NCBI GenBank assembly: GCA_963769935.1
Contig: CAVYNY010000008.1
Span: 1-64,000 of the forward strand
From: an uncultured delta proteobacterium
GTDB lineage: Bacteria > Desulfobacterota > Desulfobacteria > Desulfobacterales > JAFDCJ01
Length of the DNA: 64,000 nucleotides
Reading direction: 5' to 3'
Shown here: piece by piece, positions 17,300 to 31,399 of the stretch
Layout of the letters: each line of letters starts with the position of its first letter
How positions within the stretch are numbered: position 1 is the stretch's first letter
The notes under the pieces: generated by a model
Seen by the model: the letters and a program-made list of their open reading frames with translations, nothing else
Database searches by the model: none
Told to the model about the DNA's origin: nothing
Position numbers and translations under genes: made by a program

Positions 17300-19040
17300 T
17301 ACTACTAACGTGTAAATTCTTTAATTTTTATTAAGCAAATCATGCTGCAAGAGCTGTAATTCTTGTAATTGGAATATGTTGAGTTTGAATGACAGCAGTG
17401 ACAATTTGACGACCCTTATCAGTCAAAACATAGCGAAAAGTGCGCGGTACCTTACGGATGATTCCGTGGGCGCGAAGCATACGGAGTCGGTAAGTGATCT
17501 GGGCGGACAGACGCCGTTTTGTATGGGTATCATGATTTCCGGGATAGAATTGTTGCTGAATATCTCTATTTCTAAATCCGTTGATATTGAATTCGCCTCG
17601 GCTGATTATTTCCAGAAGGGATGTATCCTCTTTAGCCCATGGACGGAGGGCACGAACCCGCTGGCTCTTCCAACAAGTGGGGCGGCAAACCGACTCGACG
17701 ATCTCACCCAACAAACGATCCACTTTGATAGAGGCCAGGGCAGCCAGATACCGTTGGTTGGATGCTTGAGAAATTTGGGCTCGCCGATGCAGATCGGCAA
17801 TGCCTTTACGCATTCGCTGCCAGGAACAGAGGCCTTCGGGGTCCCCTTCTTTTGGACGATACACCTTGAAATCCCGGGTGGTATTCATTGTGGTCTCGAC
17901 GCGAAGCACACTTCCCTGCTTGTCGTAGATTTTTACCGAGTTGGCTTTGAGTTGATGCTTAAGTCGGATGCCTTCGGTCCGGTGTCTATAATGGCTGACG
18001 ACTTCACCTTGGAAATTGCCATGGGGTTTTTTCCCCAAAAAACGCATGACATCCTGACTGCCGAATACCGAGATGCCGCTGCGTACCAGGGTTGGGTAGA
18101 TCCTGGCCAGGCTTTCAGCAGATTTGAACATGATATCCGTGGCCCATTCACTCTGGTGGGTCGACCAATAATAAGGTTCCCGAAAAGGTGCCAGCATGGC
18201 ATCATGATCCGGATTCAAACGACGGGCAATTTCGTCGAGTGTGGCCGGCCAATTTGTCTGCAATTGCTGGTTCATCAATTCTTGGGCTTTCTCGATTTGA
18301 TCAATCCACGGAAAACAGTTATCCCGTCTTTGGTAACGAAGTCCCAGTCGATCCATTTGTCGGGCCAACCATTCGCGCCCGTTGAGACAAATCTGGATAG
18401 AGAAGGGAAACCAGCTTTGGATCCGTGCATTCATAAACCCGAATATTTCATCGATCCAGTAATGATACAGAAACAAGCACTTTCTTATTCGCGGCTGGAG
18501 CTCGAGTTTTTTCTGTTGCCGGTTCCGAAATATTTCATAACTTTGACAGGGTTCCACGGCGGTCAAAACGCAAATCAATCCCTTACGAATCCCATCGCGC
18601 TGAACAATTTTACGGGCCTGCTCCTCCTTATTTGTCTTGGCAGAAGCAAGATAGATAACAGGGCGAGCCTCCCGGTGAGCTTGTGCACAGGAGGCTTCTT
18701 TCAATTGTTTGCTTTTATCCAGAAACATTTTACCGCAATCTTTCAATCGAACCCCTGTATTCCAAAGGTAGCTCATCATTCCACTTTTGACTGCCAAAAC
18801 TCGCAACGTGCCGCGCAGAACCAAACGGTCAAAACCGCTAAGATGCCCGATGATTTGTTTTTCATATTGTGTTATAAAACTGTCCATGGCGTCCTCCTGG
18901 GTGTTGGTGGTTGTTGGCACTTCCAACAATACCCCAGTTGTGACGCCATTTCTATTTTGTTTTTCAAGTGCTTGCAAAAAGCATTTGAATCGAGTCAATC
19001 CGAAATTAAGAGCTTATTTGGTTGCGGCTCTGCCGCGCTG
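17297..19040 (-). mobile_element. Unclassified single-gene insertion element (no TIRs, CTG at junctions, subterminal GCGGC-TCT-GCCGC hairpin)
   Basis: Ends defined by the mini-element; removal restores a dispersed repeat. Confidence 0.8.
17340..18887 (-). CDS. 515-aa putative transposase/replication-initiator-like protein with C-terminal winged helix
   Basis: AGGAGG RBS before MDSFITQ; motifs GFDRL, LNGREWL, KIYDK..LRVETT, YRLRMLRAHGII..RY. Confidence 0.75.
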   Translation of the reverse strand: MDSFITQYEKQIIGHLSGFDRLVLRGTLRVLAVKSGMMSYLWNTGVRLKDCGKMFLDKSKQLKEASCAQAHREARPVIYLASAKTNKEEQARKIVQRDGIRKGLICVLTAVEPCQSYEIFRNRQQKKLELQPRIRKCLFLYHYWIDEIFGFMNARIQSWFPFSIQICLNGREWLARQMDRLGLRYQRRDNCFPWIDQIEKAQELMNQQLQTNWPATLDEIARRLNPDHDAMLAPFREPYYWSTHQSEWATDIMFKSAESLARIYPTLVRSGISVFGSQDVMRFLGKKPHGNFQGEVVSHYRHRTEGIRLKHQLKANSVKIYDKQGSVLRVETTMNTTRDFKVYRPKEGDPEGLCSWQRMRKGIADLHRRAQISQASNQRYLAALASIKVDRLLGEIVESVCRPTCWKSQRVRALRPWAKEDTSLLEIISRGEFNINGFRNRDIQQQFYPGNHDTHTKRRLSAQITYRLRMLRAHGIIRKVPRTFRYVLTDKGRQIVTAVIQTQHIPITRITALAA

Positions 19041-19155: not shown

Positions 19156-19605
19156 TTATATCATCCCGGCCAATCCCTCCAGTGCCAGCAGATATCCGTA
19201 CGATCCGAAACCGGCGATCCGCGCCGTGACAATATCTGCGATCATCGACTGATGGCGGAAGGGTTCTCTTTTATTGACGTTGGACAGGTGTATCTCGACG
19301 ATTGGAACATCCAGCATCGCCAGCGCGTCCCGAATGGCGATGCTGGTATGGGTAAAAGCGGCGGGATTGATGATGATTCCCTGGCAGTTGCCCATGGCCT
19401 GCTGAATTTCGTCAACAATCGCCCCTTCATAGTTGGATTGAAAAGTTGCGACCTTCAGGCCAAGATCTTCACCCAATGCTTTAAGTTCTGAGTCTATCTC
19501 TTCAAGGCCCTTGTGGCCATAAATTTCGGGCTCTCGCTTGCCGAGCATATTCAGGTTGGGGCCATGAATGACCAGGATTTTTTTCGCATCGGATCTTTCC
19601 GGCAT
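19156..19605 (-). CDS. aroQ: Type II 3-dehydroquinate dehydratase
   Basis: HGPNLNMLGKREPEIYG, NPAAFTHTS, EIHLSN. Confidence 0.97.
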   Translation of the reverse strand: MPERSDAKKILVIHGPNLNMLGKREPEIYGHKGLEEIDSELKALGEDLGLKVATFQSNYEGAIVDEIQQAMGNCQGIIINPAAFTHTSIAIRDALAMLDVPIVEIHLSNVNKREPFRHQSMIADIVTARIAGFGSYGYLLALEGLAGMI

Positions 19606-19634
19606 AATTTAGCTCCTCTTAATCAACCCATCAT

Positions 19635-20375
19635 TTAACCGACCAAATCGCCCTGCTCCAATCTGGCATTGATGTCTTTCATAATATCGATAAATTCATT
19701 CCGTTTTTTTCTGGCGTGCGGGTTGTAGCGATGCATATCCATGAACAATTGCCAGGTGTCGCGCTCGACAACTTCCAGAATGTGCAGGAGCCTTTTATAC
19801 CCCTCCGTATCGATATCGAGCCGGCCGGCGCCGGATTCCGATAAGGTCCGGCCGATCAAATGAGTCAGGGCCAGGCTGGTGGCGATCTGCCTGTCATGCT
19901 CCGTTGCAGATGCTTCGATGACGACCAAGCCTTTGGCTTCTAAATAAGTTTTAACATTGAGGTACTGTATTTCAGAAATTCTCACTTTACACAAACAGAT
20001 CTTTCTTCCCACCAGGGAATCCGAGGCGCTGTCCGGACCAAACATGGGATGGGTTGCCAGAATTGATACCGTAGCGGGCAGGATCTCTTTCATCCATTGG
20101 ATGGGATATTCTTTAACGGAACACACATCGACTATCAGCGCATCCGGTTTTATCAACGGGGAGATGTCTTTTAGAATATTCCGGAAGATCGAAATGGGCA
20201 CACTCGGTATTACGATATCCTGTCTGCATACCATTTCAAGAGGCGCCGCGCGGGCACCGGTCAAATTGATCTCCGATGATTTATCGGCTCTGTTATAGAC
20301 GAAGACTTCAAAGTCTTCCGCCAGATAATGCGCTGCGAGTTTCCCGAATCTGCCGAATCCAATAATCCCAATCAT
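19635..20375 (-). CDS. tyrA: Prephenate/arogenate dehydrogenase
   Basis: GFGRFG, DVCSVK, THPMFGP, EHD. Confidence 0.88.
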   Translation of the reverse strand: MIGIIGFGRFGKLAAHYLAEDFEVFVYNRADKSSEINLTGARAAPLEMVCRQDIVIPSVPISIFRNILKDISPLIKPDALIVDVCSVKEYPIQWMKEILPATVSILATHPMFGPDSASDSLVGRKICLCKVRISEIQYLNVKTYLEAKGLVVIEASATEHDRQIATSLALTHLIGRTLSESGAGRLDIDTEGYKRLLHILEVVERDTWQLFMDMHRYNPHARKKRNEFIDIMKDINARLEQGDLVG

Positions 20376-21502
20376 AAAGCCTCTGCTATTCTTGATAGAC
20401 CGTCTACCAGGCTGTCCTCGGGGACGGCATATGATATTCTGACGTGACCCGGTGAACCGAACTCTTCTCCGGGCACCACGGCAACACCATGCCGCTCGAG
20501 CAGGCGCCCGGCGAAATCAGCCGATGTCATGCCTTTGTCGAGACGGCGCGAGACATCGGGAAAAAGATAAAATGCCCCCCGGGGTTTGACACAGTCAAAC
20601 AAACCGGAAATTTTGCCGTAGGCATAGTCTCTTTTTCTTTCCAGATCGAAACGCCAGCCGGAAAGGTCCTCATCTCTCAATCCCAGGGCGGCAAGAGCGC
20701 CGTACTGGACGAAGGTGCAGACATTGCCGGTCAAATGGCTTTGCAATCGGTTGACCGCGCTGATGATATCGCGGGAAGCAGCTATATAGCCCAGTCTGAA
20801 ACCGGTCATGTTAAAGCCTTTTGAAAAACTTCGGGTTACAATCAGCTGAGGGCGTATATTCTCAATCGCGAACAAACTCTCAGCTTTAAACCCGTCATAA
20901 ACGTAAAAGTTGTAAGCTTCATCGGCAATAATGTAAAGCCGGTACTTTGAAGCAATTCGTGCAATCTCGGCTAAATCTTTTGCCGGGTAAACCGCACCGG
21001 TGGGGTTGTTGGGCGAGTTGACCAGGATTGCCCGCGTTCTGGGAGATATTGCTGCCTCAATTTTCTCACAGTCCAACTGATGGTCGTGCGTGTCGACAAA
21101 AATCGGGCGACCGCCCGCAAGCTTGACCTGCTGCGGGAAACTTACCCAATACGGCCGCGGTATGATAACTTCGTCATCAGGGTTACAGATAATCTGAAAT
21201 ATTGAATACAGGCACTGTTTCGAACCATTTGAAATAATGATGTTTTTTTCATCATAGCCGCCAAACTGCTGGCCCAGAGCCCATTTCAGCTCTTGCAGAC
21301 CCGCAACCGGCCCATATTTTGTCCGGCCGTCATCCAGCGCCTTTTTGGTAGCTTCGATGACATTTGAAGGCGTATCAAAGGGTGGTTCCCCCACCGCCAG
21401 GTCAATGACATCCCGGCCTTCTTGCCTGAGCTGCTGAAGCAGCAGGGTAAACTGCACGGTCCCGGATGCCTCAATTTGATTGATGCGATCTGATAGCTTC
21501 AT
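20372..21502 (-). CDS. Class I PLP aminotransferase (aspartate/prephenate aminotransferase-like)
   Basis: VGEP, NSPNNPTG, DEAY, SFSKGFNMTGFRLG. Confidence 0.9.
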   Translation of the reverse strand: MKLSDRINQIEASGTVQFTLLLQQLRQEGRDVIDLAVGEPPFDTPSNVIEATKKALDDGRTKYGPVAGLQELKWALGQQFGGYDEKNIIISNGSKQCLYSIFQIICNPDDEVIIPRPYWVSFPQQVKLAGGRPIFVDTHDHQLDCEKIEAAISPRTRAILVNSPNNPTGAVYPAKDLAEIARIASKYRLYIIADEAYNFYVYDGFKAESLFAIENIRPQLIVTRSFSKGFNMTGFRLGYIAASRDIISAVNRLQSHLTGNVCTFVQYGALAALGLRDEDLSGWRFDLERKRDYAYGKISGLFDCVKPRGAFYLFPDVSRRLDKGMTSADFAGRLLERHGVAVVPGEEFGSPGHVRISYAVPEDSLVDGLSRIAEAL

Positions 21503-21604
21503 AATTGTATAATGCCTAAAATGTGCTAAATTGCCTAAGATGCCTAAAATTAAAGAAACTATTCCTTCTTTTCCAATCCGCGTTCCGAAATCTGCAATCT
21601 GAAA

Positions 21605-22699
21605 TCAAAAATTTCCACCCCGTATCCTGCTCCGCTGCCGCAGCGCCAGATCGGCAATGACGAGGGCGGCCATGCACTCGACGATCGGAACGGCCCGCGG
21701 CACCACGCAGGGGTCGTGGCGCCCCCTGGCCTCCAGGGTGGTTTCGTTCCCGTTAAAATCAGTCGTTGCCTGCGCCTGCCCGATGGTTGCCGGCGGTTTG
21801 AAACCCACCCGGAATAAAATCGGCTCACCGTTTGAGATGCCGCCCTGGACTCCCCCGCTGAAGTTGGTCTGCGTCCCTAAGCGATCGCCTTTTTTCACAA
21901 AAGGATCATTATGTCTTGAGCCCGTCATCCGGGTACCCGCAAAGCCTGATCCGATTTCAAAACCCTTGGTTGCCGGAATCGACAGCATGGCCTGGGCCAG
22001 TCGGGCCTCCAATTTATCAAATACCGGCTCACCCAGCCCGGCCGGGACGTGACGACAAATGCAGGTGATAACGCCGCCCAATGAATCCTGCGCTTCGCGG
22101 GCGTCTTTGATCGCCCCCATCATTTGCCGGGCATCATCGTGGTTGGGACAGCGCACTTCTGTTTCGTCCACTTCCCGGCGGGCAATGCAGGTTTCATCGA
22201 CATCGGAGGCGCTGATTGGGCCGACCGAACTCACCCAGGCAACGATTTCTACACCATAATCCTCATACAGAAATTTTTCGGCAATCGCACCGGCCGCCAC
22301 ACGTCCAATGGTTTCCCGGGCACTGGATCTCCCGCCGCCGCTCGCCGCCCGTATTCCGTATTTCATCTGGTAGGTGTAATCGGCGTGCGACGGACGGGGG
22401 ATGGCTCGCAGCGCAGCATAGTCACCCGGTCTTTGATCCCGGTTGGCCACGCTTAGTGCAATGGGTGTACCCAAGACCCGGCCGTGTTCGACGCCGGATA
22501 GAATCGTAACCCGGTCGGCTTCATCCCGGTCGGTTGTCAAACGACTCTGACCGGGACGACGGCGGTCCAACTGCGGCTGAATGTCGCTTTCACTGAGTGC
22601 CATGCCCGGGGGGCATCCGTCAACCACCGCCCCAACCCCCTTGCCATGGGACTCACCGAAAGTGGTTACTTTGAAAATGGTGCCGAATGTGCTCGACAT
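21605..22699 (-). CDS. aroC: Chorismate synthase
   Basis: [28 protein letters not shown]. Confidence 0.98.
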
Positions 22700-22869
22700 T
22701 TATATTGTCTCCGAATTCTTTTTAGACGGTTTTTATCGTATCATCGTATCTCTGACTTATAGACGGCAATTCAAATTGATAAAGCGCGGAGACAAAATAG
22801 TTGATAGTTCATAGCTGATAGCTGATAGTTTAGATGATATCATCATGTTAAACCTCTATTAGCTTTGAG

Positions 22870-23442
22870 CTATGAGCTGTGAGCTTCATTACGCTCCGCA
22901 TCTAATGCTATAAGTTGCCGCATGATTGCCTCGCAGACCTCATCGATTCGCCGACCATCCGTATCTACTAAAAAATCCATAGCCCGTCTGTAACATGGTT
23001 CCCGTTCAAGCAGGGTTTCTTCTATCTCGGCAATACTGTCTTTGGAGCTCAGAGGAGGCCGAAATGCTTCGGTATCCGTGTCCTGCATCATTCTTCTTCT
23101 TATCGTTTCCGGCGCCGCACGCAGCCAGAAAATTTTTCCGGCTGCTTTCATGCCTGCCACATTCGCATCATTGAGCACCACCCCGCCGCCGGTCGCCACC
23201 ACCTGTTGATTTTGATCGCAGACCCGTTTGACAACTTCGTGCTCAAATTTGCGAAACTCCTGCCAGCCGCAGTTTTCAACGATTTCTCTGATGCTTGTCT
23301 GCTTCTCGGCAACCAACAAAGAATCCGTATCTGCAAAATGCCAACCCAACCTGGCCGCAAGCAACCTGCCCACCGATGATTTGCCGGTGCAGCGGTATCC
23401 GATCAAAAAAACATTGTTTGGGTTGATGGGTTCAGCGTTCAA
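22870..23442 (-). CDS. aroK: Shikimate kinase
   Basis: GYRCTGKSSVG, DTD, ATGGG, RPPL; start uncertain (lies in a repeat). Confidence 0.92.
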   Translation of the reverse strand: MNAEPINPNNVFLIGYRCTGKSSVGRLLAARLGWHFADTDSLLVAEKQTSIREIVENCGWQEFRKFEHEVVKRVCDQNQQVVATGGGVVLNDANVAGMKAAGKIFWLRAAPETIRRRMMQDTDTEAFRPPLSSKDSIAEIEETLLEREPCYRRAMDFLVDTDGRRIDEVCEAIMRQLIALDAERNEAHSS

Positions 23443-23657
23443 CGTTCAGGGTTTACCTCTCCATGCAGGTTCAAAGGTTCATGGTTCAGGGTTAGCTTCC
23501 TTAAATTGGATCGGGCCTATATACAAGATTAAGTCCAGGGAACTTAGCATCTTGAATTCACCCTACCCAGCCACCCCCGTCAAGGAGAAGGAGATCTATA
23601 GATCGTTTTTTAAAAGAGACGGAACACCTTAAATATTCAATCGGCAATCTTCAATAT

Positions 23658-24923
23658 TCAATTATAGAGCCCTTCGAAAACGTTCCAGAATTCGGGAAAT
23701 GACTTCTCTACGCAGCGCTCCGCCAGAATAAATGTCCCTGGAGTGACCAGCCCTGCAACCGCAAAGCTCATGGCAATGCGGTGATCTGCGTAAGTTTGGA
23801 TTTCAGCTCCGTGCGGCGTGCCCCCCGTAACGATCAATTCCTTGTCGCTGCAACGGGCCTGAATCCCCATTTTGACGAGCTCGTTGACAACCGAACTTAA
23901 CCGGTTACTCTCTTTGGCCTTGAGATGGGAAACATTCTTGATGACCGTTGTCCCTTCGGCAAAGGCTGCAACCACCGCCAGGGTCGGCACCATGTCCGGC
24001 ATGTCGCCCATGTCGATCTCGGCTGCCCGCAGGTGTCTGCCGGCAACTGTAATGCCATCGTGCTCCCTTTTGACTTCGCAGCCCATGTTTGCCAGCAGCT
24101 GCGCAAAATTGACGTCCCCCTGCCTGGAATCTTCCGTGACGCCTTTAACTTTGATCCGGGTTCCGCAAACGGCGGCGGCGGCCCAAAAATAACCGGCCTG
24201 GGAGGCATCCGGTTCGACCGCATATGCGCCCGCCCGATAGGATTGTTGGCCGGCAACCAGAAAGCGGCCATATTCTTCTCGGCCGACCGCTACGCCGAAC
24301 TTATTCATGACATCGATCGTCATGTCCACGTACGGCTTGGATACCGGGCCTTCAGAGACTGCGATATCCAGACCCTTTTCGGTACAGGGCGCGATCAAAA
24401 GCAAGGCGGAAAGATACTGGCTGCTCGTGCGGCAGTTGATGGTCACCGGACCACCCTTTAAGGGGCCGCCATGAATTTCAACCGGTGGACAACCATTGCG
24501 ATTTGTAGATCGGATCTGCACGCCGAGCTGGTGCAGGGCATCGATAAGATCCTGGATCGGCCGTTCAGCCATCCGTTCGGTTCCGAACAAAGTCAGGCTC
24601 TGTCGGCCGAGGGCGGCGACGGCGGTCAGCAGGCGCATGGAAGTACCGGAATTTCCAAGATAAATGCGATCCACACCTGGCTTGAGATGCCCTTTGCTTC
24701 CTTGAACGATGAACCGGCCCTCAGGGGCATCCGCGATGCGAATCCCCATCTGCCTGAGGGCCTGCATGGTCAGCCGGGTATCTTCCGCGAGCAGCGCATT
24801 TTCGATCCGGCATGCGCCATCCGACAGCGCGGAGGCAATCAGAATCCGGTGGGTATAGCTTTTGGAACCCGGAACGCTGACTTCAGCATATGGTTTTATG
24901 TGATGCGGCTTGATTTCGATCAT
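23658..24923 (-). CDS. aroA: EPSP synthase
   Basis: PGSKS, GNSGTSMR, SSQY, KESNR, DHRIAM. Confidence 0.97.
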   Translation of the reverse strand: MIEIKPHHIKPYAEVSVPGSKSYTHRILIASALSDGACRIENALLAEDTRLTMQALRQMGIRIADAPEGRFIVQGSKGHLKPGVDRIYLGNSGTSMRLLTAVAALGRQSLTLFGTERMAERPIQDLIDALHQLGVQIRSTNRNGCPPVEIHGGPLKGGPVTINCRTSSQYLSALLLIAPCTEKGLDIAVSEGPVSKPYVDMTIDVMNKFGVAVGREEYGRFLVAGQQSYRAGAYAVEPDASQAGYFWAAAAVCGTRIKVKGVTEDSRQGDVNFAQLLANMGCEVKREHDGITVAGRHLRAAEIDMGDMPDMVPTLAVVAAFAEGTTVIKNVSHLKAKESNRLSSVVNELVKMGIQARCSDKELIVTGGTPHGAEIQTYADHRIAMSFAVAGLVTPGTFILAERCVEKSFPEFWNVFEGLYN

Positions 24924-25075
24924 CGTCTATCAAAAAGTTTTTCGCTATTGTCAAAGTGTCAATCGAGACTTAACAATTGCGGGATTCATCCAACGGCTGG
25001 GAGGCTAGGGTGATAGGTGGCGGGAAGCACGCAGCAATTAATCTTTCAAGCCTTCCAGCTTTCCAGCTTCAAGCG

Positions 25076-26194
25076 TTAATGGTTTGACAGCGCTTCCAAC
25101 ACCACCTTGCGCATAACATCCACCGGTGCTTTCTGGCCGGTCCACAACTCAAACTGCACCGCTCCCTGATGTACCAACATGGCAACACCGTCTATGGTGG
25201 TGCATCCTTTTTTTTCCGCTTCCCTCAAAAAACGGGTTTCCAACGGGTTATATACCAGGTCCATGACAATCATTCCGCCTTCAAGCAGCGCGGCATTCAG
25301 AGGGGTGTCGGTTTCATGCGGCGTCATTCCGGCTGATGTGGCATTGATGACGATACTATAGGGCAGCCGCCGTACTTCCGCAAGAGGCTTGAATTCACAA
25401 TCCAGGTCGGCGGCAAGTGATTCGCCGCTCTGCTTTGAGCGGTTGATAATGGTCAGCCGCCCTCCTTCCTGCCGGATGCCGAACCCAACGGCCCGGGCGC
25501 TTCCGCCGGCCCCGATCACCGCTACTTCCCTGCCGTGAATGCCGATTTTTTCCGCAAGCGCTTTAATGGCACCGGTACAATCTGAGTTGTAGCCGCAAAG
25601 AGCTCCCTGCCGGTTTACAATTGTATTGACCGCACCAATTTTCCGGGCCAGCGCGTCTACCTGGTCGAGGTATTTCATGACGCCGACTTTATGAGGAATG
25701 GTGATGCTGACACCCCGTATATCCAGGGCTCGCACGCCCCTAACCGCTGCCGCGATGTCTTTGACCCTGAATGCTAAATAGACACCCTCGCAACCGGTCT
25801 GGGCGAGCGCACTGTTGTGCATGACGGGGCTGAGGCTGTGGCTTACCGGATCTCCGAAAACAGCATAAATCGGAGGCAATTCGCTTCCGAATTGCATTTT
25901 TTGAATGTCGCGGCCGGAATCAATGATGCTTCTGAATATGCGATAAAGCGATGCGGATTTTAATGCTCCGATACTCCGAGTCAAGAGTCTGGAATAAATT
26001 TCACTTTCGCGCCGTTTATCGACCACTGCGATCCCGGATTTGCGCTTGATTCTGCCGATGGCTTGGGCGGCCGCCAGCCGCCGGTTGATCAGTCCAAGGA
26101 TCTGATCATCGATATCGTCGATGCGCCGCCTGAGGGCTTCGATCTCAGCCCCGGGGGTGTCTGATTGGTTTTCTTTGTTAGTTGGTTTGTCCAT
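25076..26194 (-). CDS. aroE: Chorismate mutase (AroQ-type)-shikimate dehydrogenase fusion
   Basis: N-term LRRRIDDID..RL..IGRIK..RE; C-term HSLSPVMHN, VTIPHK-like motif, GAVNT, DLVYNP. Confidence 0.9.
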   Translation of the reverse strand: MDKPTNKENQSDTPGAEIEALRRRIDDIDDQILGLINRRLAAAQAIGRIKRKSGIAVVDKRRESEIYSRLLTRSIGALKSASLYRIFRSIIDSGRDIQKMQFGSELPPIYAVFGDPVSHSLSPVMHNSALAQTGCEGVYLAFRVKDIAAAVRGVRALDIRGVSITIPHKVGVMKYLDQVDALARKIGAVNTIVNRQGALCGYNSDCTGAIKALAEKIGIHGREVAVIGAGGSARAVGFGIRQEGGRLTIINRSKQSGESLAADLDCEFKPLAEVRRLPYSIVINATSAGMTPHETDTPLNAALLEGGMIVMDLVYNPLETRFLREAEKKGCTTIDGVAMLVHQGAVQFELWTGQKAPVDVMRKVVLEALSNH

Positions 26195-26282
26195 GATGTC
26201 AAAATGGGACACGGATAAACACCGATTGCACGGATATATTGTTTGAGGTCATTGATAGAGAATAGCTTCTGAATCCTGCTAA

Positions 26283-26438
26283 GGGCTCACTCAAAAATAA
26301 CTTCACATTTTATACGCCGATGCATCCCGCCCGACTGCGTTGCGAAAGCTCGGAATATCCAGATATTCCTGCGTTTTCGCGCCTTGCCGGACGAGCGCCT
26401 CAACGCCTAAAACCGTGAATTAATTTTTTCGTGAACCC
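26283..26438. mobile_element. 156-bp MITE copy 1 (TAA target duplication)
   Basis: Imperfect TIRs GGGCTCAC/GTGAACCC flanked by TAA; near-identical inverted copy at 55804-55959. Confidence 0.88.
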
Positions 26439-26527
26439 TAAGCTAGGCCGAGAAGGCCCCACTTACTACTCCGTGAAGATCTGTAAAAATCTGTGTCCTT
26501 TAATTTCAATTAGCTGAATTGGTGCCT

Positions 26528-27550
26528 TTATTTTTCAACCAACTCTTCCAGTTCCTGAATTGCAATTTCTTCAACATAGGCTTGGCCGATTTCACTGAGC
26601 AGCACAAAATGTATCCGATCCCCTTCCCTTTTTTTATCCTTTCGAATCGCTTCAAGCACCTGGTTGCGGTCAAATTGGAGCCGGACGGGCAGGCCGAATT
26701 TTTCAAGCAACCGGGCAATCCGGGCTGAATCTTTACTCGTCAGACTGCCTTTTTTCACCCCCAGTTCGCAGGCCAGCACCATTCCGGCGCTGACGGCTTC
26801 CCCGTGGCGAACCTGCGTAATTTTTTCGATGGCATGGCCGAAAGTATGACCGAAATTAAGTTTGCGGCGCGCGCCTTTTTCCTTTTCATCGAGGCTGACG
26901 ATAGATGATTTTATGATCACCGAATCGTATACCAATTTCTCGATAACCGCCCGGTCCAGGGACAGGGCTCTGTCGGAATTTTCTTCCAGATAGGCGAAAA
27001 GGTCTTGGTCGGCGATGGCGCCGTGTTTGATAATCTCGGCGAAACCGCTCAGGATTTCGCTTTGAGGAAGCGTTGTTAGAAGATCGAGGTCACAGATGAC
27101 AAATTCGGGCTGATTAAAGACGCCCACGATATTTTTGAAACCACCGAAATTGACCCCGTTTTTACCGCCCACACTGGCGTCCACCTGGGCCAGCAGGGTG
27201 CTTGACACAAACCCGAACCGCACCCCCCGCATGTAGGTGGAAGCGACGAAACCGGCAATGTCGCAAACGATTCCGCCGCCGATTCCGACAATAAAAGAAG
27301 ATCGGTCGGCCCCGAGCGTCAGTAATTGCTCATAAATGCAACGGACGGTGTCGATGCTTTTTATTTTTTCACCGGTTGCGGTTGCAATGACAGGTCCCGG
27401 CGGAAAATGCTTCCCCCAGTAATCCTGCACGTTGGTATCGGTGACGATAATGGGCGTTTTCACCGGCAGGTGCTTGGTCAGGTTCTGCAGCCGCTCACCG
27501 ATCATGATCATGGAATCTGCGGCCGCAGTTTTTATGTTCACTATCTTCAT
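26528..27550 (-). CDS. aroB: 3-dehydroquinate synthase
   Basis: GGGIVCD, QVDASVGGK, LNFGHT, HGEAV; ATGA overlap with upstream gene. Confidence 0.96.
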   Translation of the reverse strand: MKIVNIKTAAADSMIMIGERLQNLTKHLPVKTPIIVTDTNVQDYWGKHFPPGPVIATATGEKIKSIDTVRCIYEQLLTLGADRSSFIVGIGGGIVCDIAGFVASTYMRGVRFGFVSSTLLAQVDASVGGKNGVNFGGFKNIVGVFNQPEFVICDLDLLTTLPQSEILSGFAEIIKHGAIADQDLFAYLEENSDRALSLDRAVIEKLVYDSVIIKSSIVSLDEKEKGARRKLNFGHTFGHAIEKITQVRHGEAVSAGMVLACELGVKKGSLTSKDSARIARLLEKFGLPVRLQFDRNQVLEAIRKDKKREGDRIHFVLLSEIGQAYVEEIAIQELEELVEK

Positions 27551-28632
27551 AAAGCGTTCACCCAGCGGTCGGAACTGTTCGTTTTCGAGGAGTTTACCAG
27601 TTTCTCGGCCGCCGTCAGCAGCAGGCGTTCGGTGGTCTCCCAGGAAATGCACTCATCTGTGATGGATACACCGTATTGGAGAGAAGCAAGATTCCCGCTG
27701 AATTTCTGATTGCCTTCATACAGATTGCTTTCCAGCATAAGGCCGAATATCGCATCGTTGCCGGCGATATACTGGTCGATCACATTGCGCCAGACGATGG
27801 CCTGACCCTGGAATTTTTTCATCGAGTTGCCATGAGAACAGTCCACCATAATGGCCTCGGGCAGTTTTTTTTCAATCAGGTTCAGGCGGGCTTCTTCAAT
27901 ACTGATGGGATCGTAATTGGGTCGCCGGCCTCCCCGCAATACGATATGCGTCCACGGATTTCCGCCGGTTTGCACGATGCAGGTTTGACCGTTTTGATTA
28001 ATACCCAAAAAACTTTGGGCTGTTTTGGCCGCCAGGATAGCGTTTATGGCCGAAGACAAATTGCCGTCGGTACCATTTTTAAACCCAACCGGCATGGAAA
28101 GACCGCTGGCCATTTCACGGTGCGTCTGGGACTCCGTTGTTCGGGCGCCGATGCAGGCCCAGGTGACAAGATCGGCCACATACTGGGGGGTGATCGTTTC
28201 AAGGAATTCGGTGGCAGCCGGAACTCCTGTTTCATTAATCTGCAGCAGTATGCGGCGCGCTTTCTGCAATCCTTCCATGATATCACAGGTGCCGTCCATC
28301 CGCGGATCGTTGATTAATCCTTTCCACCCAACAGATGTCCGGGGCTTTTCAAAATAAACACGCATGATCACCAAGAGCGCTTCGCCGACCTTTTCTCTGA
28401 TTTTTCTGAGTTTGTCGGCATATTCATAGGCCGCCGCTTCATCATGGATAGAACAGGGACCGGCGATTACCAGAAGCCGTTTGTCTTTGCGGCTTATAAT
28501 CTCTTCGATGGCCTTTCTGCCGGACAGCACGGTATTGCTGGCCTCCCGGCTGATGGCAAGCTTCTGCTTCAACGAACTCGGCTCCATGAGCTGCCGATAT
28601 CCTTTCACGCGCAGATCATCGGTTGGTTTCAT
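27547..28632 (-). CDS. aroG: DAHP synthase class I-alpha
   Basis: GPCSIHD, RVYFEKPRT, GWKGLINDP, IGARTTESQ, DCSHGNS. Confidence 0.95.
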   Translation of the reverse strand: MKPTDDLRVKGYRQLMEPSSLKQKLAISREASNTVLSGRKAIEEIISRKDKRLLVIAGPCSIHDEAAAYEYADKLRKIREKVGEALLVIMRVYFEKPRTSVGWKGLINDPRMDGTCDIMEGLQKARRILLQINETGVPAATEFLETITPQYVADLVTWACIGARTTESQTHREMASGLSMPVGFKNGTDGNLSSAINAILAAKTAQSFLGINQNGQTCIVQTGGNPWTHIVLRGGRRPNYDPISIEEARLNLIEKKLPEAIMVDCSHGNSMKKFQGQAIVWRNVIDQYIAGNDAIFGLMLESNLYEGNQKFSGNLASLQYGVSITDECISWETTERLLLTAAEKLVNSSKTNSSDRWVNAL

Positions 28633-28714
28633 AATTCTTCCCCTCTGTTAGACTTGGTCTATTTGAGCTGCCAAAGTCTTAATTGTCCGGATTACCTTTA
28701 ATGCCGGTCATAAA

Positions 28715-28753
28715 ACAAAAAAACCGTGAGCTTTAAGTTCTGCCCACGGTTTT
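28715..28753 (-). terminator. Attenuator terminator of the leftward aro operon
   Basis: ACCGTGGGC-loop-GCTCACGGT followed by T run on minus strand. Confidence 0.85.
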
Positions 28754-28781
28754 GTATGCTTAATTATTTTGCTGTATCTTT

Positions 28782-28865
28782 TCAGCGCACCCCAGGCAGA
28801 CCGATGCCATTAAAATAATACCAATAATAAAAATAAGCATGGTTGCCAGAAAAGATTTGCGCCAC
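28782..28865 (-). CDS. Aromatic amino acid leader peptide MAQIFSGNHAYFYYWYYFNGIGLPGVR
   Basis: AAGGA RBS, GTG start, 8 consecutive Tyr/Phe/Trp codons, downstream terminator. Confidence 0.85.
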   Translation of the reverse strand: MAQIFSGNHAYFYYWYYFNGIGLPGVR

Positions 28866-29090
28866 GTTGCGGTCCTTTATAATTTTTTTCTATCGTGGAA
28901 ATGAGAGTATAGAATTGAATTCTGCGTGTCAAGTTCTTTTTTTAGTGCCCCACCCCCCCCTGTGAATCCCGCTTTCTTTGGGGCTCCAAAAGCCGAAGAT
29001 TCTTTTACGGTTAATGCGGCCGTTGCGATGGCCGGCGGTTTGGCTGACATTTTGAAATCTTGGGCCTTGAAACGATTTTAAAAAAAGATA

Positions 29091-29120
29091 TTGACAAGTA
29101 AAAAAGAATTTAGCTATGCT
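29091..29120 (+). promoter_or_regulatory. Sigma70 promoter for leader-aroF-pheA
   Basis: TTGACA-18 bp-TATGCT. Confidence 0.65.
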
Positions 29121-29148
29121 GACACGACTTATCAATGGGATCAAGAAA

Positions 29149-29232
29149 ATGAAGACAATTTATGTGACAAAAGGATATTTTAATTTCGGACGCTTCTTTT
29201 TTAATTTTAGAGGCGTCCATCCGGCCGGTTAA
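29149..29232 (+). CDS. Phe-rich leader peptide MKTIYVTKGYFNFGRFFFNFRGVHPAG
   Basis: 6 Phe codons within 10 codons; alternative hairpins and terminators follow. Confidence 0.85.
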   Translation: MKTIYVTKGYFNFGRFFFNFRGVHPAG

Positions 29233-29254
29233 CGCGAACCTACAGCTGTTATAA

Positions 29255-29332
29255 CCCCCGGGTGGACTTGAGCGCCGCCCGGGGAGTTTTTGTTTTTAAA
29301 AGGCCCCGGGAAAAATCCCGGGGTCTTTTTTT
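29255..29332 (+). terminator. Two tandem intrinsic terminators (attenuator)
   Basis: CCCCGGGTGG..CCGCCCGGGG+T run, and GGCCCCGGGA..TCCCGGGGTC+T7. Confidence 0.85.
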
Positions 29333-29488
29333 ATTGAGGCAATAATTAATGTCTCATAATTGAATAAATTGTTGTGCATACATGCAAAGCGTTGTGTATA
29401 TGTGACGCCCTGCGGTCGGCTTAGATTCAATCGATTCAAAGGGCCAATCAGCAATTTATCTAAACGCTTTGTATAAAGGAAAGTCATT

Positions 29489-30313
29489 ATGAAAAACATT
29501 AAACTAGCGATGCGTGAAACGGAACAGCGCACCATCATCAACATATGCGATGTCGCAGTCGGTCGGGATTTTACCGTAATCGCCGGCCCCTGCAGCGTGG
29601 AGAACGAGGAGCAGATGTTCGAATCCGCGCGGGCGGTCAAAGCCGCCGGGGCGGACATGCTGCGCGGCGGTGCTTTTAAACCCCGCACATCACCTTACGC
29701 TTTTCAGGGGCTGGGTTTAAACGGCTTGAAGCTGCTGTCCCAGGCAGGTAAAGAGACCGGGCTGCCGATTGTCACCGAGGTTATCGATCCGCGGGATGTC
29801 TCCTGGGTGGCTGAATTTGCGGATGTCCTGCAGATCGGAACCCGCAACATGCAGAACTACTCCCTGCTCAAAGAGGTCGGTCAGGCCGGACGGCCGGTGC
29901 TGCTCAAGCGAGGCATGTATTCAACCCTTGAGGAATGGTTGAACTGCGCCGAGTACATCCTCAGCGAAGGCAATCCGAACGTAATCCTCTGCGAACGGGG
30001 CATCCGAACCTTTGAAACCTACACCCGCAACACACTGGATCTGAGTGCGGTGCCGGCTATCAAGGAGCTGACCCATCTGCCCATCATTATTGATCCCACC
30101 CACAGCACCGGTCGTGTCAGCCTGATCGGCCCCATGAGCCTGGCGGCTGTCGCGGCAGGCGCGGATGGTTTGATGGTGGAGGTTCATTATAATCCCGCCG
30201 CAGCCCTGTGCGACGCCGACCAGGCACTCACTCCCCCAATTTTCGCGGATATCATGGAGCGCCTGCGGCCCTTGAAAACATTCATGGATAGCCTGCCGAC
30301 TAGTAGCAAATAA
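29489..30313 (+). CDS. aroF: DAHP synthase class I-beta (no obvious regulatory domain)
   Basis: [40 protein letters not shown]. Confidence 0.94.
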
Positions 30314-30334: not shown

Positions 30335-31399
30335 ATGAAACCGGATGAAATCAACAAAAAAATAGACAAGATTGATCGGGAACTTCTGGTCCTGCTCCAG
30401 GAACGCATGGGACTTGCCTTACGCTCCCAGAAATTCCAGGAATCCGCCGGAGCTGCTCAGCGCGAGGAGGATCTGCTCGCGCGCATGGAGCGCATGAACC
30501 TGGACCTGGTTAAACGCTCATTTTCACGCCAGTTGCTGAAGACCATTATCGAAGAGAGCAAGCGGCTGCAGGATGAAGATCGTCAGTTGGTTGCATTCCA
30601 GGGGGAACATGGGGCCTACGGCGACGTTGCCGCCAGGCGTCTGGTGCCGGCCGGTGCGTATATCCCCTGCCTTGAATTCGTTGACGTCTTTCGCGGTGTG
30701 GAAGAAGGTTATTTGGATCTCGGCGTGGTGCCGGTGGAAAATTCCCTGGAGGGCGCCGTCACCCAGGTCAATGATCTTCTCACGACCACTGAACTGAATG
30801 TTGTCGGAGAGGTCAAAGTCGATGTCAATCACTGTTTGCTGGCTACGGCGGCAACGGATTATCGTGAGATCCGGGTGGTTTACTCCCATCCCCAGGCGCT
30901 GGCCCAGTGCCGTGATTTTCTGATGCGCAATAAACTTGAACCACGCCCCTACTACGATACGGCCGGTGCCGCAAAAATGCTGGCCCGGGAAAATCCCAAA
31001 GCGTCCGCCGCCATTGCAAGCGCCTTATGCGCCGAGCTTTATGACCTGGATGTTATAAAAGAAGGGATTGAGGACGGACCGTCCAACTCCACGCGGTTTT
31101 TACTTATGTCCCGTGAACCTTACTCCGGCGATGGCGATAAAACTTCCGTAATCTTTGCGGTGGCCCATGAGGCGGGCCAGCTTTATGGTGTCCTCAGATT
31201 ATTTGCCGATGCGAATATCAACCTGACCCGGATTTCTTCCATGCCCTTGCGTTCAGATCCTAGCAACTATAGCTTTTTTCTGGACTTTGAAGGCTCGGAA
31301 AAGAATTCAAAGGTCGCAGAAGTATTGGAGAAGATGGCGGCCATGACGATTTCACTGAAAAATCTGGGAAGTTATCCGGCAGACAAGGGAGGCGCGTAG
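30335..31399 (+). CDS. pheA: Chorismate mutase/prephenate dehydratase
   Basis: CM domain, FQGEHGAY, PVENSLEG, SHPQALAQC, NSTRF, ACT domain. Confidence 0.95.
   Translation: MKPDEINKKIDKIDRELLVLLQERMGLALRSQKFQESAGAAQREEDLLARMERMNLDLVKRSFSRQLLKTIIEESKRLQDEDRQLVAFQGEHGAYGDVAARRLVPAGAYIPCLEFVDVFRGVEEGYLDLGVVPVENSLEGAVTQVNDLLTTTELNVVGEVKVDVNHCLLATAATDYREIRVVYSHPQALAQCRDFLMRNKLEPRPYYDTAGAAKMLARENPKASAAIASALCAELYDLDVIKEGIEDGPSNSTRFLLMSREPYSGDGDKTSVIFAVAHEAGQLYGVLRLFADANINLTRISSMPLRSDPSNYSFFLDFEGSEKNSKVAEVLEKMAAMTISLKNLGSYPADKGGA

What the first reader, a model, noticed from the sequence alone, without database searches (positions are those of the whole stretch)
28715..28880. Leader peptide YFYYWYYF: an attenuator sensing all three aromatic amino acids
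Unannotated 27-codon ORF with eight consecutive aromatic codons (5 Tyr, 2 Phe, 1 Trp) upstream of the nine-gene common-pathway operon. Its 3' part (TCTGCCT) can pair with the terminator 5' arm (GGGCAGA), forming an antiterminator. Classic trp/phe leaders sense one amino acid; a three-way sensor for the shikimate pathway is logical and, to my knowledge, little described.
Basis: partly seen in the sequence, partly recalled or inferred. Interest (0 to 1): 0.75.

Follow-up and report, generated by a model that had tools for sequence, protein, structure and literature searches.

The report
Aromatic leader-peptide attenuator, Trp optional
A 27-codon mini-gene with eight aromatic codons in a row and a terminator hairpin sits before the nine-gene aromatic amino-acid operon, recurs in most related genomes, and likely switches the operon on when tyrosine or phenylalanine runs short, while its single tryptophan codon is missing in about half of the relatives and is likely optional.

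Summary
In detail: a 27-codon ORF (28865-28782, minus strand) with 5 Tyr, 2 Phe and 1 Trp codons in one run, a Shine-Dalgarno site, a competing antiterminator and a terminator precedes a nine-gene aro operon. It belongs to an uncatalogued family: an RNA model finds it in 136 of 151 genomes of the order, ahead of DAHP synthase or of the unrelated archaeal-type ADH synthase, with covarying helices. The three-way claim is only partly supported. Tyr and Phe codons are kept in 166 of 167 leaders, Trp in 77. All 20 congeners have Arg at this Trp position, the codon's GG usually pairs inside the leader hairpin, and this genome's own trp operon is decayed. Best reading: a classical ribosome-sensed attenuator reading Tyr and Phe supply, with an optional Trp input. 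Regulation itself is untested. The closest published case is C. glutamicum aroR-aroF. This scan has noted similar leaders on other DNA before (32 findings by word search). Verdict: new variant of a known kind, moderate interest.

The parts
28904..28932 (-). Predicted sigma-70-type promoter: -35 hexamer at 28932-28927, 17-nt spacer, weak -10 at 28909-28904
   Evidence: Sequence; the same -35 box and spacing are seen by eye upstream of several congener leaders. Not called by the consensus scan. Inferred.
28873..28877 (-). Shine-Dalgarno site, 7 nt before the leader's GTG
   Evidence: Sequence; similar sites in most relatives
28782..28865 (-). Leader peptide ORF, 27 codons
   Evidence: no NCBIfam match; conserved in 26 of 26 DAHP-synthase loci first examined
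28812..28835 (-). Control codons: eight consecutive aromatic codons (5 Tyr, 2 Phe, 1 Trp); the Trp codon is at 28823-28821
   Evidence: composition across relatives
28837..28850 (-). Segment 1, 5' arm of the predicted 1:2 (anti-antiterminator/pause) hairpin, just before the control codons
   Evidence: Folds; 83% of cells paired and 5 of 7 pairs with two-sided change in 60 sequences
28789..28807 (-). Segment 2, pairs either with segment 1 or with segment 3 (antiterminator)
28720..28753 (-). Segments 3 and 4, intrinsic terminator hairpin; its 5' arm (28749-28739) is the antiterminator partner
   Evidence: 92.9% of cells paired and 53 two-sided changes in 60 sequences
28712..28723 (-). U tract of the terminator, 80 nt before the DAHP synthase start
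   Evidence: Sequence
27547..28632 (-). DAHP synthase, class I-alpha (aroFGH type), first regulated gene
   Evidence: TIGR00034 above cut-off
19156..27550 (-). Rest of the operon: aroB, CM-aroE fusion (25076-26212), aroA (23658-24923), shikimate kinase (22870-23442), aroC (21605-22699), aminotransferase (20372-21502), prephenate dehydrogenase (19635-20375), aroQ (19156-19605)
   Evidence: same order in 4 of 4 congeners read in full. Co-transcription inferred.
29149..29232 (+). Second, divergent leader ORF (27 codons, 6 Phe, 2 Tyr) with hairpins at about 29256-29296 and 29298-29329, ahead of a class I-beta DAHP synthase (29489-30313) and pheA (30335-31399)
   Evidence: a similar Phe-rich ORF in 4 congeners

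Best explanation
This is likely a classical ribosome-coupled transcription attenuator that would let RNA polymerase read on into the aro operon when charged tRNA-Tyr or tRNA-Phe is short, with the lone Trp codon a likely optional, partly structural extra. Shown: the ORF, codon run, Shine-Dalgarno site, terminator, complementary segments, the downstream operon and order-wide conservation. Inferred: a ribosome loads at the GTG and opens the 1:2 hairpin. If it stalls anywhere in the aromatic run, it covers segment 1 and leaves segment 2 free (the last aromatic codon lies just far enough upstream). Segment 2 then pairs with the terminator's 5' arm and transcription continues. If it reaches the stop it covers segment 2, the 3:4 terminator forms and transcription ends 80 nt before the first gene. 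Phe-branch and Trp-branch genes have their own Phe-rich and Trp-rich leaders, so this leader would set flux through the shared pathway and the Tyr branch.
For: Model R1 matches 136 of 151 genomes of the order, 104 of 112 high-quality ones (genomes that supplied training sequences are included), and 61 of 151 in the phylum. The leader follows the pathway, not one gene: in 167 leaders it precedes class I-alpha DAHP synthase (107), archaeal-type ADH synthase (50), aroK (3), aroE (3), or others. All three exclusive helices beat column shuffles (0 of 500 on cells with two-sided change) and slid controls on percent paired in 60 sequences. The antiterminator duplex averages -21.0 against -12.6 kcal/mol shuffled, better in 137 of 138. 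Geometry is fixed: the last aromatic codon is 7-10 codons before the stop in 153 of 167. Synonymous TAT/TAC (546/137) and TTT/TTC (395/59) both occur. Tyr and Phe are in 166 of 167, Trp in 77 of 167, Arg at the site in 20 of 20 congeners. The middle G of the interrupting codon is predicted to pair just after the run in 36 of 51 Trp and 31 of 33 Arg cases, against 16 and 13 after shuffling. Trp presence needs 19 changes on a quick aroA tree, shuffled mean 22.0, 7 forced by strong branches. This genome's trp operon is decayed.
Against: No translation, termination or starvation response was measured. TGG is the commonest interrupting codon (59) and is in 26 of 27 of the ADH-synthase leaders caught by the pattern scan (closely related records), so it may be selected as a sensor. 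In this window the Trp codon's G is predicted unpaired (0.05), so the structural excuse does not apply here. Leaders were partly chosen by having a terminator, so 138 of 138 terminators is not an independent test. The covariation shuffles ignore relatedness, and the count of pairs with two-sided change was not significant for the 2:3 and 1:2 helices (39 and 37 of 500). The inner antiterminator helix was only 50% paired.
Confidence: 0.62

Rival explanations
1. A true three-way attenuator: the single Trp codon is a selected sensor, so shortage of any of Tyr, Phe or Trp opens the shared pathway; lineages with Arg or Gly there have dropped to two inputs.
For: Trp in 77 of 167 leaders and 44 of 66 families. 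TGG far outnumbers Cys codons, which are fewer mutations from Tyr/Phe codons (59 against 9). It lies 11-13 codons before the stop in 51 of 88 cases, inside the window where a stall frees segment 2. Trp is rarer in genomes without trpC (7 of 27 against 70 of 140, p 0.034). One leader that heads aroG plus the whole trp operon has two Trp codons (L294).
Against: The trpC link vanishes outside the window's genus (6 of 16 against 69 of 130, p 0.29). 0 of 20 congeners keep Trp at the site, including 10 scored as having trpC. This genome has the codon but no intact Trp pathway. trp operons carry their own multi-Trp leaders (4 loci). In C. glutamicum aroR, Tyr is encoded but not sensed (review passage).
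Confidence: 0.27
2. An attenuator in which one amino acid dominates (Tyr, or Phe as in aroR) and the other aromatic codons add little.
For: Tyr codons are the majority (mean 4.35 Tyr, 3.10 Phe; 5.7 Tyr in this genus). The operon holds the Tyr-branch dehydrogenase while pheA has its own Phe leader. The aroR precedent shows selective sensing.
Against: Phe is kept in 166 of 167. Its share rises when pheA is in the operon (0.44 in 38 family groups against 0.38 in 24, p 0.022), which suggests Phe codons are tuned.
Confidence: 0.07
3. Not tRNA-sensing: a fixed leaky terminator, a protein- or ligand-switched RNA, or an arrest peptide that senses a free amino acid in the ribosome tunnel, as TnaC does (TnaC recalled, no call).
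For: U-rich DNA gives Phe/Tyr codons easily. The C-terminal residues are conserved, and a few leaders look frame-shifted or stop early (L021, L023, L121, L122, L125, L250).
Against: Reading frame, start site and stop spacing are kept. The conserved C-terminal codons coincide with segment 2, which explains them. No T-box or riboswitch model matches.
Confidence: 0.04

Closest known systems
Corynebacterium glutamicum aroR-aroF attenuator (Neshat et al. 2014, seen only as summarised in PMC11802643; leader first noted in PMC4046766)
   Same: Leader peptide with mixed aromatic codons ahead of a DAHP synthase operon; ribosome stalling raises transcription.
   Different: aroR has only Phe-Tyr-Phe and responds to Phe, not Tyr. 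This leader has a median of 8 aromatic codons in 12, often a Trp, heads up to nine genes and also precedes ADH synthase. Sequence homology to aroR was not tested.
E. coli pheL-pheA and trpL-trpEDCBA attenuators (Rfam Phe_leader, Trp_leader)
   Same: Same four-segment logic: leader ORF, control codons, 1:2 / 2:3 / 3:4 hairpins, U tract.
   Different: They read one amino acid and control terminal branches. No Rfam leader family reaches its gathering score here. PMC3082878 predicts a pheL before pheA in Desulfobacterium autotrophicum, which resembles the window's divergent Phe leader rather than this one.
Multivalent thr and ilv attenuators (thrL, ilvL; recalled, no call)
   Same: One leader reads several end products of a branched pathway.
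   Different: They read Thr/Ile or Leu/Ile/Val, not aromatic amino acids.

Membership tests
Classical ribosome-mediated transcription attenuator | Short leader ORF with ribosome-binding site ahead of the operon | tested here: met
Classical ribosome-mediated transcription attenuator | Run of codons for the pathway's end products, conserved | tested here: met
   Tyr and Phe in 166 of 167 leaders; longest such run in the genome
Classical ribosome-mediated transcription attenuator | Intrinsic terminator before the first gene | tested here: met
   (predicted structure with covariation); missed by the simple scan
Classical ribosome-mediated transcription attenuator | Mutually exclusive antiterminator placed so that a stalled ribosome frees it | tested here: met
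Classical ribosome-mediated transcription attenuator | Termination depends on leader translation and tRNA charging | not testable with these tools
   Needs reporter, Term-seq or Ribo-seq data
Three-way (Tyr/Phe/Trp) sensor | Trp codon conserved like the Tyr and Phe codons | tested here: not met
   77 of 167; 0 of 20 congeners at this site
Three-way (Tyr/Phe/Trp) sensor | Trp codon tracks the ability to make Trp | tested here: inconclusive
   p 0.034 overall, p 0.29 outside the genus; this genome has the codon without an intact trp operon
Rfam Phe_leader / Trp_leader / His_leader families | Match at the family's gathering score | tested here: not met
   No match at gathering in window 28400-29600 or in 4 relative loci
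T-box or riboswitch leaders | Match to a T-box or riboswitch covariance model | tested here: not met
C. glutamicum aroR family | Sequence homology to aroR | not tested
   The aroR sequence was not fetched; the primary paper is not held

The most novel reading that the evidence does not exclude
Sulfate reducers of this order use a phylum-wide, uncatalogued leader that integrates Tyr, Phe and Trp supply in one ribosome stall window. It has stayed in front of the aromatic pathway while the entry enzyme was replaced by an unrelated one, and the Trp input is switched on and off in evolution by single base changes in a codon that doubles as a hairpin arm.
Probability: 0.3. Interest if true: 0.65.

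Novelty: new variant of a known kind. Interest (0 to 1): 0.45.

Why it matters
It gives a regulatory model for aromatic amino-acid synthesis in a large group of mostly uncultured sulfate reducers and a ready RNA family that Rfam and NCBIfam lack. It is also a natural series for asking how many amino acids one attenuator can read and whether one codon is enough: Trp, Arg and Gly variants of the same position exist side by side. The mechanism itself is textbook, and the scan has met similar leaders elsewhere.

Tried and rejected
Rfam and NCBIfam gave no family for the leader. Whole-leader folding stability is not unusual. The promoter/terminator scan missed both elements. A plasmid BLAST found nothing.

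RNA data: four metatranscriptome runs of one study hold a close relative as assembled contigs only. One contig spans 26641-28886, across leader, terminator and the first genes, and the gap between the two divergent leaders has almost no cover. Contigs cannot show strand, ends or levels and DNA may be present, so this is not used as evidence. The leader-level letters of that relative were not seen.

A link between Trp codon and trpC failed once the genus was removed. A link between Trp codon and pheA in the operon was not significant (p 0.074). Compensatory pairing for non-GG interrupting codons was not found (5 of 29 against 4). The careful aroA tree did not finish, and the quick tree was used.

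Rows left out: L026 and L027 (partial or weak); L130; L170-L173 and L175 (gene motif not matched); L225. No leader was found before DAHP synthase in L036, L129, L137, L165, L168, in two operon-internal copies (L135, L169) or in five second-in-tandem copies.

Nine paper searches found no description of this family. Vitreschak 2004, Lopatovskaya 2010 and Neshat 2014 were seen only as citations and could hold such a prediction.

Full report
Observation. The minus strand carries a GTG-started 27-codon ORF at 28865-28782 with a Shine-Dalgarno site 7 nt upstream. Codons 11-18 are five Tyr, two Phe and one Trp. This is the longest aromatic run in any frame of the genome, 1 of 19 runs of six or more. 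A hairpin with a U tract lies at 28753-28712, 80 nt before a class I-alpha DAHP synthase. The simple scan did not call this terminator and the whole leader is not unusually stable (z -0.69), so the case rests on comparison. Downstream are nine genes: DAHP synthase, aroB, chorismate mutase-aroE, aroA, shikimate kinase, aroC, an aminotransferase, prephenate dehydrogenase and aroQ. Four of four congeners read in full have the same order.

Conservation. All 26 DAHP-synthase loci first examined had the leader. A search of 301 genomes of the order, a pattern scan (51 hits, 47 with titles naming Desulfobacterales or other deltaproteobacterial groups) and fetched regions gave 138 leaders after removing duplicates. 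I infer from those titles that the window is from the Desulfobacterales. Loci without a leader and rows left out are listed under Tried and rejected. A covariance model from 60 of the 138 matches 136 of 151 genomes of the order, training genomes included. It matches 61 of 151 in the phylum; 19 of 25 new phylum loci inspected precede an aro gene. In this genome it has one strong match, this one. In a set of 167 leaders from 165 genomes the first gene is class I-alpha DAHP synthase in 107, archaeal-type ADH synthase in 50, and aroK, aroE, pheA, DHQ synthase II or class I-beta DAHP synthase in nine; one has none assigned. The leader has therefore stayed with the pathway across replacement of its entry enzyme.

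RNA switch. On the 60-sequence alignment the terminator is 92.9% paired with 53 two-sided changes. The main antiterminator helix is 85.6% paired, with 39 two-sided changes over both its helices. The 1:2 helix is 83.4% paired with 15. Each beats all 500 shuffles on that measure, and slid controls pair at most 55%. The shuffles ignore kinship, the number of covarying pairs was not significant for the last two, and the inner antiterminator helix is only 50% paired. Antiterminator duplexes average -21.0 against -12.6 kcal/mol for shuffles, are better in 137 of 138, and prefer their own partner in 94 of 138. For this window, folding only what a ribosome would leave free gives the antiterminator after a stall at the first or last aromatic codon, and the terminator after arrival at the stop. 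The last aromatic codon lies 7-10 codons before the stop in 153 of 167 leaders.

Which amino acids. Two or more Tyr codons and at least one Phe codon are each in 166 of 167 leaders; Trp is in 77 (30 of 50 before ADH synthase, 42 of 107 before DAHP synthase). Among 66 families, 44 have some Trp leaders and 22 none. All 20 congeners have Arg at this window's Trp position. TGG is still the commonest codon interrupting the Tyr/Phe run (59, CGG 29, Gly 25, Cys 9). Its GG, like that of CGG, is predicted to pair with bases just after the run (36 of 51 Trp, 31 of 33 Arg; 16 and 13 after shuffling), though not in this window (0.05). On a quick aroA tree of 70 rows Trp needs 19 changes against a shuffled mean of 22.0 (44 of 500 as low), and the window sits inside its genus. 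The codon is labile, and may be a reversion here (inference, weak support).

Trp metabolism. This genome (96.7% complete) has no match to the anthranilate synthase family or to trpA. In mid-contig C13 lies a remnant: a three-Trp leader with terminator, a trpE start that stops after about 51 codons, an internally deleted trpD and a 108-codon trpC piece. The trpB2 gene is in pieces, which could be assembly error. The organism is likely a Trp auxotroph, so a Trp signal could not be answered by this operon. Across genomes, Trp codons are rarer without trpC (7 of 27 against 70 of 140), but not significantly once this genus is removed (trpC calls from 52, 53). Intact trp operons next to aro operons have their own multi-Trp leaders in four loci. 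In this window a divergent Phe-rich leader heads a second DAHP synthase and pheA. The Phe share of the aromatic leader is higher when pheA is in its operon (p 0.022 by family).

Mechanism. Most likely a classical attenuator reading charged tRNA-Tyr and tRNA-Phe, with Trp optional (0.62). A selected three-way sensor remains possible (0.27), a single dominant input less so (0.07), and a non-tRNA mechanism is unlikely (0.04). Attenuation in some form is thus about 0.95. No step of regulation was measured.

Known relatives. No Rfam family reaches its threshold and NCBIfam has no model for the peptide. PMC11802643 (passages) describes C. glutamicum aroR before aroF, with Phe-Tyr-Phe, responding to Phe but not Tyr. 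PMC4046766 (passages) first noted that leader. PMC3082878 (passages and section 10) predicts a pheL in Desulfobacterium autotrophicum; its figure was not visible. PMC2659441 (passages) lists Shewanella aroF as a possible Tyr attenuator. PMC4833913 (passages and a supplement search) has only genome lists. Nine searches found no account of this family, but three key subscription papers were not readable. Earlier notes of this scan report like leaders in other genomes; they gave me the aroR lead and are not independent support.

Verdict. A real and widespread, uncatalogued variant of a textbook switch. Interest 0.45.

Noticed in passing
window 29091-29335 (+): A second, divergent attenuator-like leader (6 Phe, 2 Tyr; strong promoter match; two hairpins with U tracts) heads a class I-beta DAHP synthase and pheA, so two attenuators sit back to back. 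A similar ORF is in 4 congeners.
   Followed up: partly
L179 (G000:C13:320542-322200, minus): Decayed trp operon: three-Trp leader and terminator, truncated trpE, internally deleted trpD, trpC fragment; no trpA or anthranilate synthase match in the genome. Likely Trp auxotroph; 11 of 22 congeners also gave no trpC match.
   Followed up: partly
L309 (G000:C34:122980-124359): The trpB2-type tryptophan synthase beta gene is split over three frames; pseudogene or assembly error.
   Followed up: no
L316, L324, L330: Phe-rich leaders matching the model precede what look by eye like ABC substrate-binding proteins in three genomes of the phylum; possible attenuation of amino-acid uptake.
   Followed up: no
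window 25076-26212 (-): Chorismate mutase-like domain fused to shikimate dehydrogenase; separate small CM genes stand at this place in some relatives.
   Followed up: no
L294: One genome joins DAHP synthase directly to the whole trp operon under an aromatic leader with two Trp codons.
   Followed up: no
L021, L023, L121, L122, L125, L250: Leaders whose ORF stops early or appears shifted in frame relative to the conserved downstream segment, while the terminator is kept.
   Followed up: no
many relative loci, e.g. L018, L022, L025, L042: A second hairpin with a U tract follows the main terminator in many relatives, giving tandem terminators (seen by eye).
   Followed up: no
window 17340-18998 (-): A 552-aa ORF that looks like a mobile-element protein sits right after aroQ, with a 568-aa antisense frame; not searched.
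   Followed up: no
L056, L065, L095: Leader hits in records titled Gillisia, Gammaproteobacteria and Nitrospinaceae are near-identical to Desulfobacterales leaders; probably mis-binned or mislabelled contigs.
   Followed up: no
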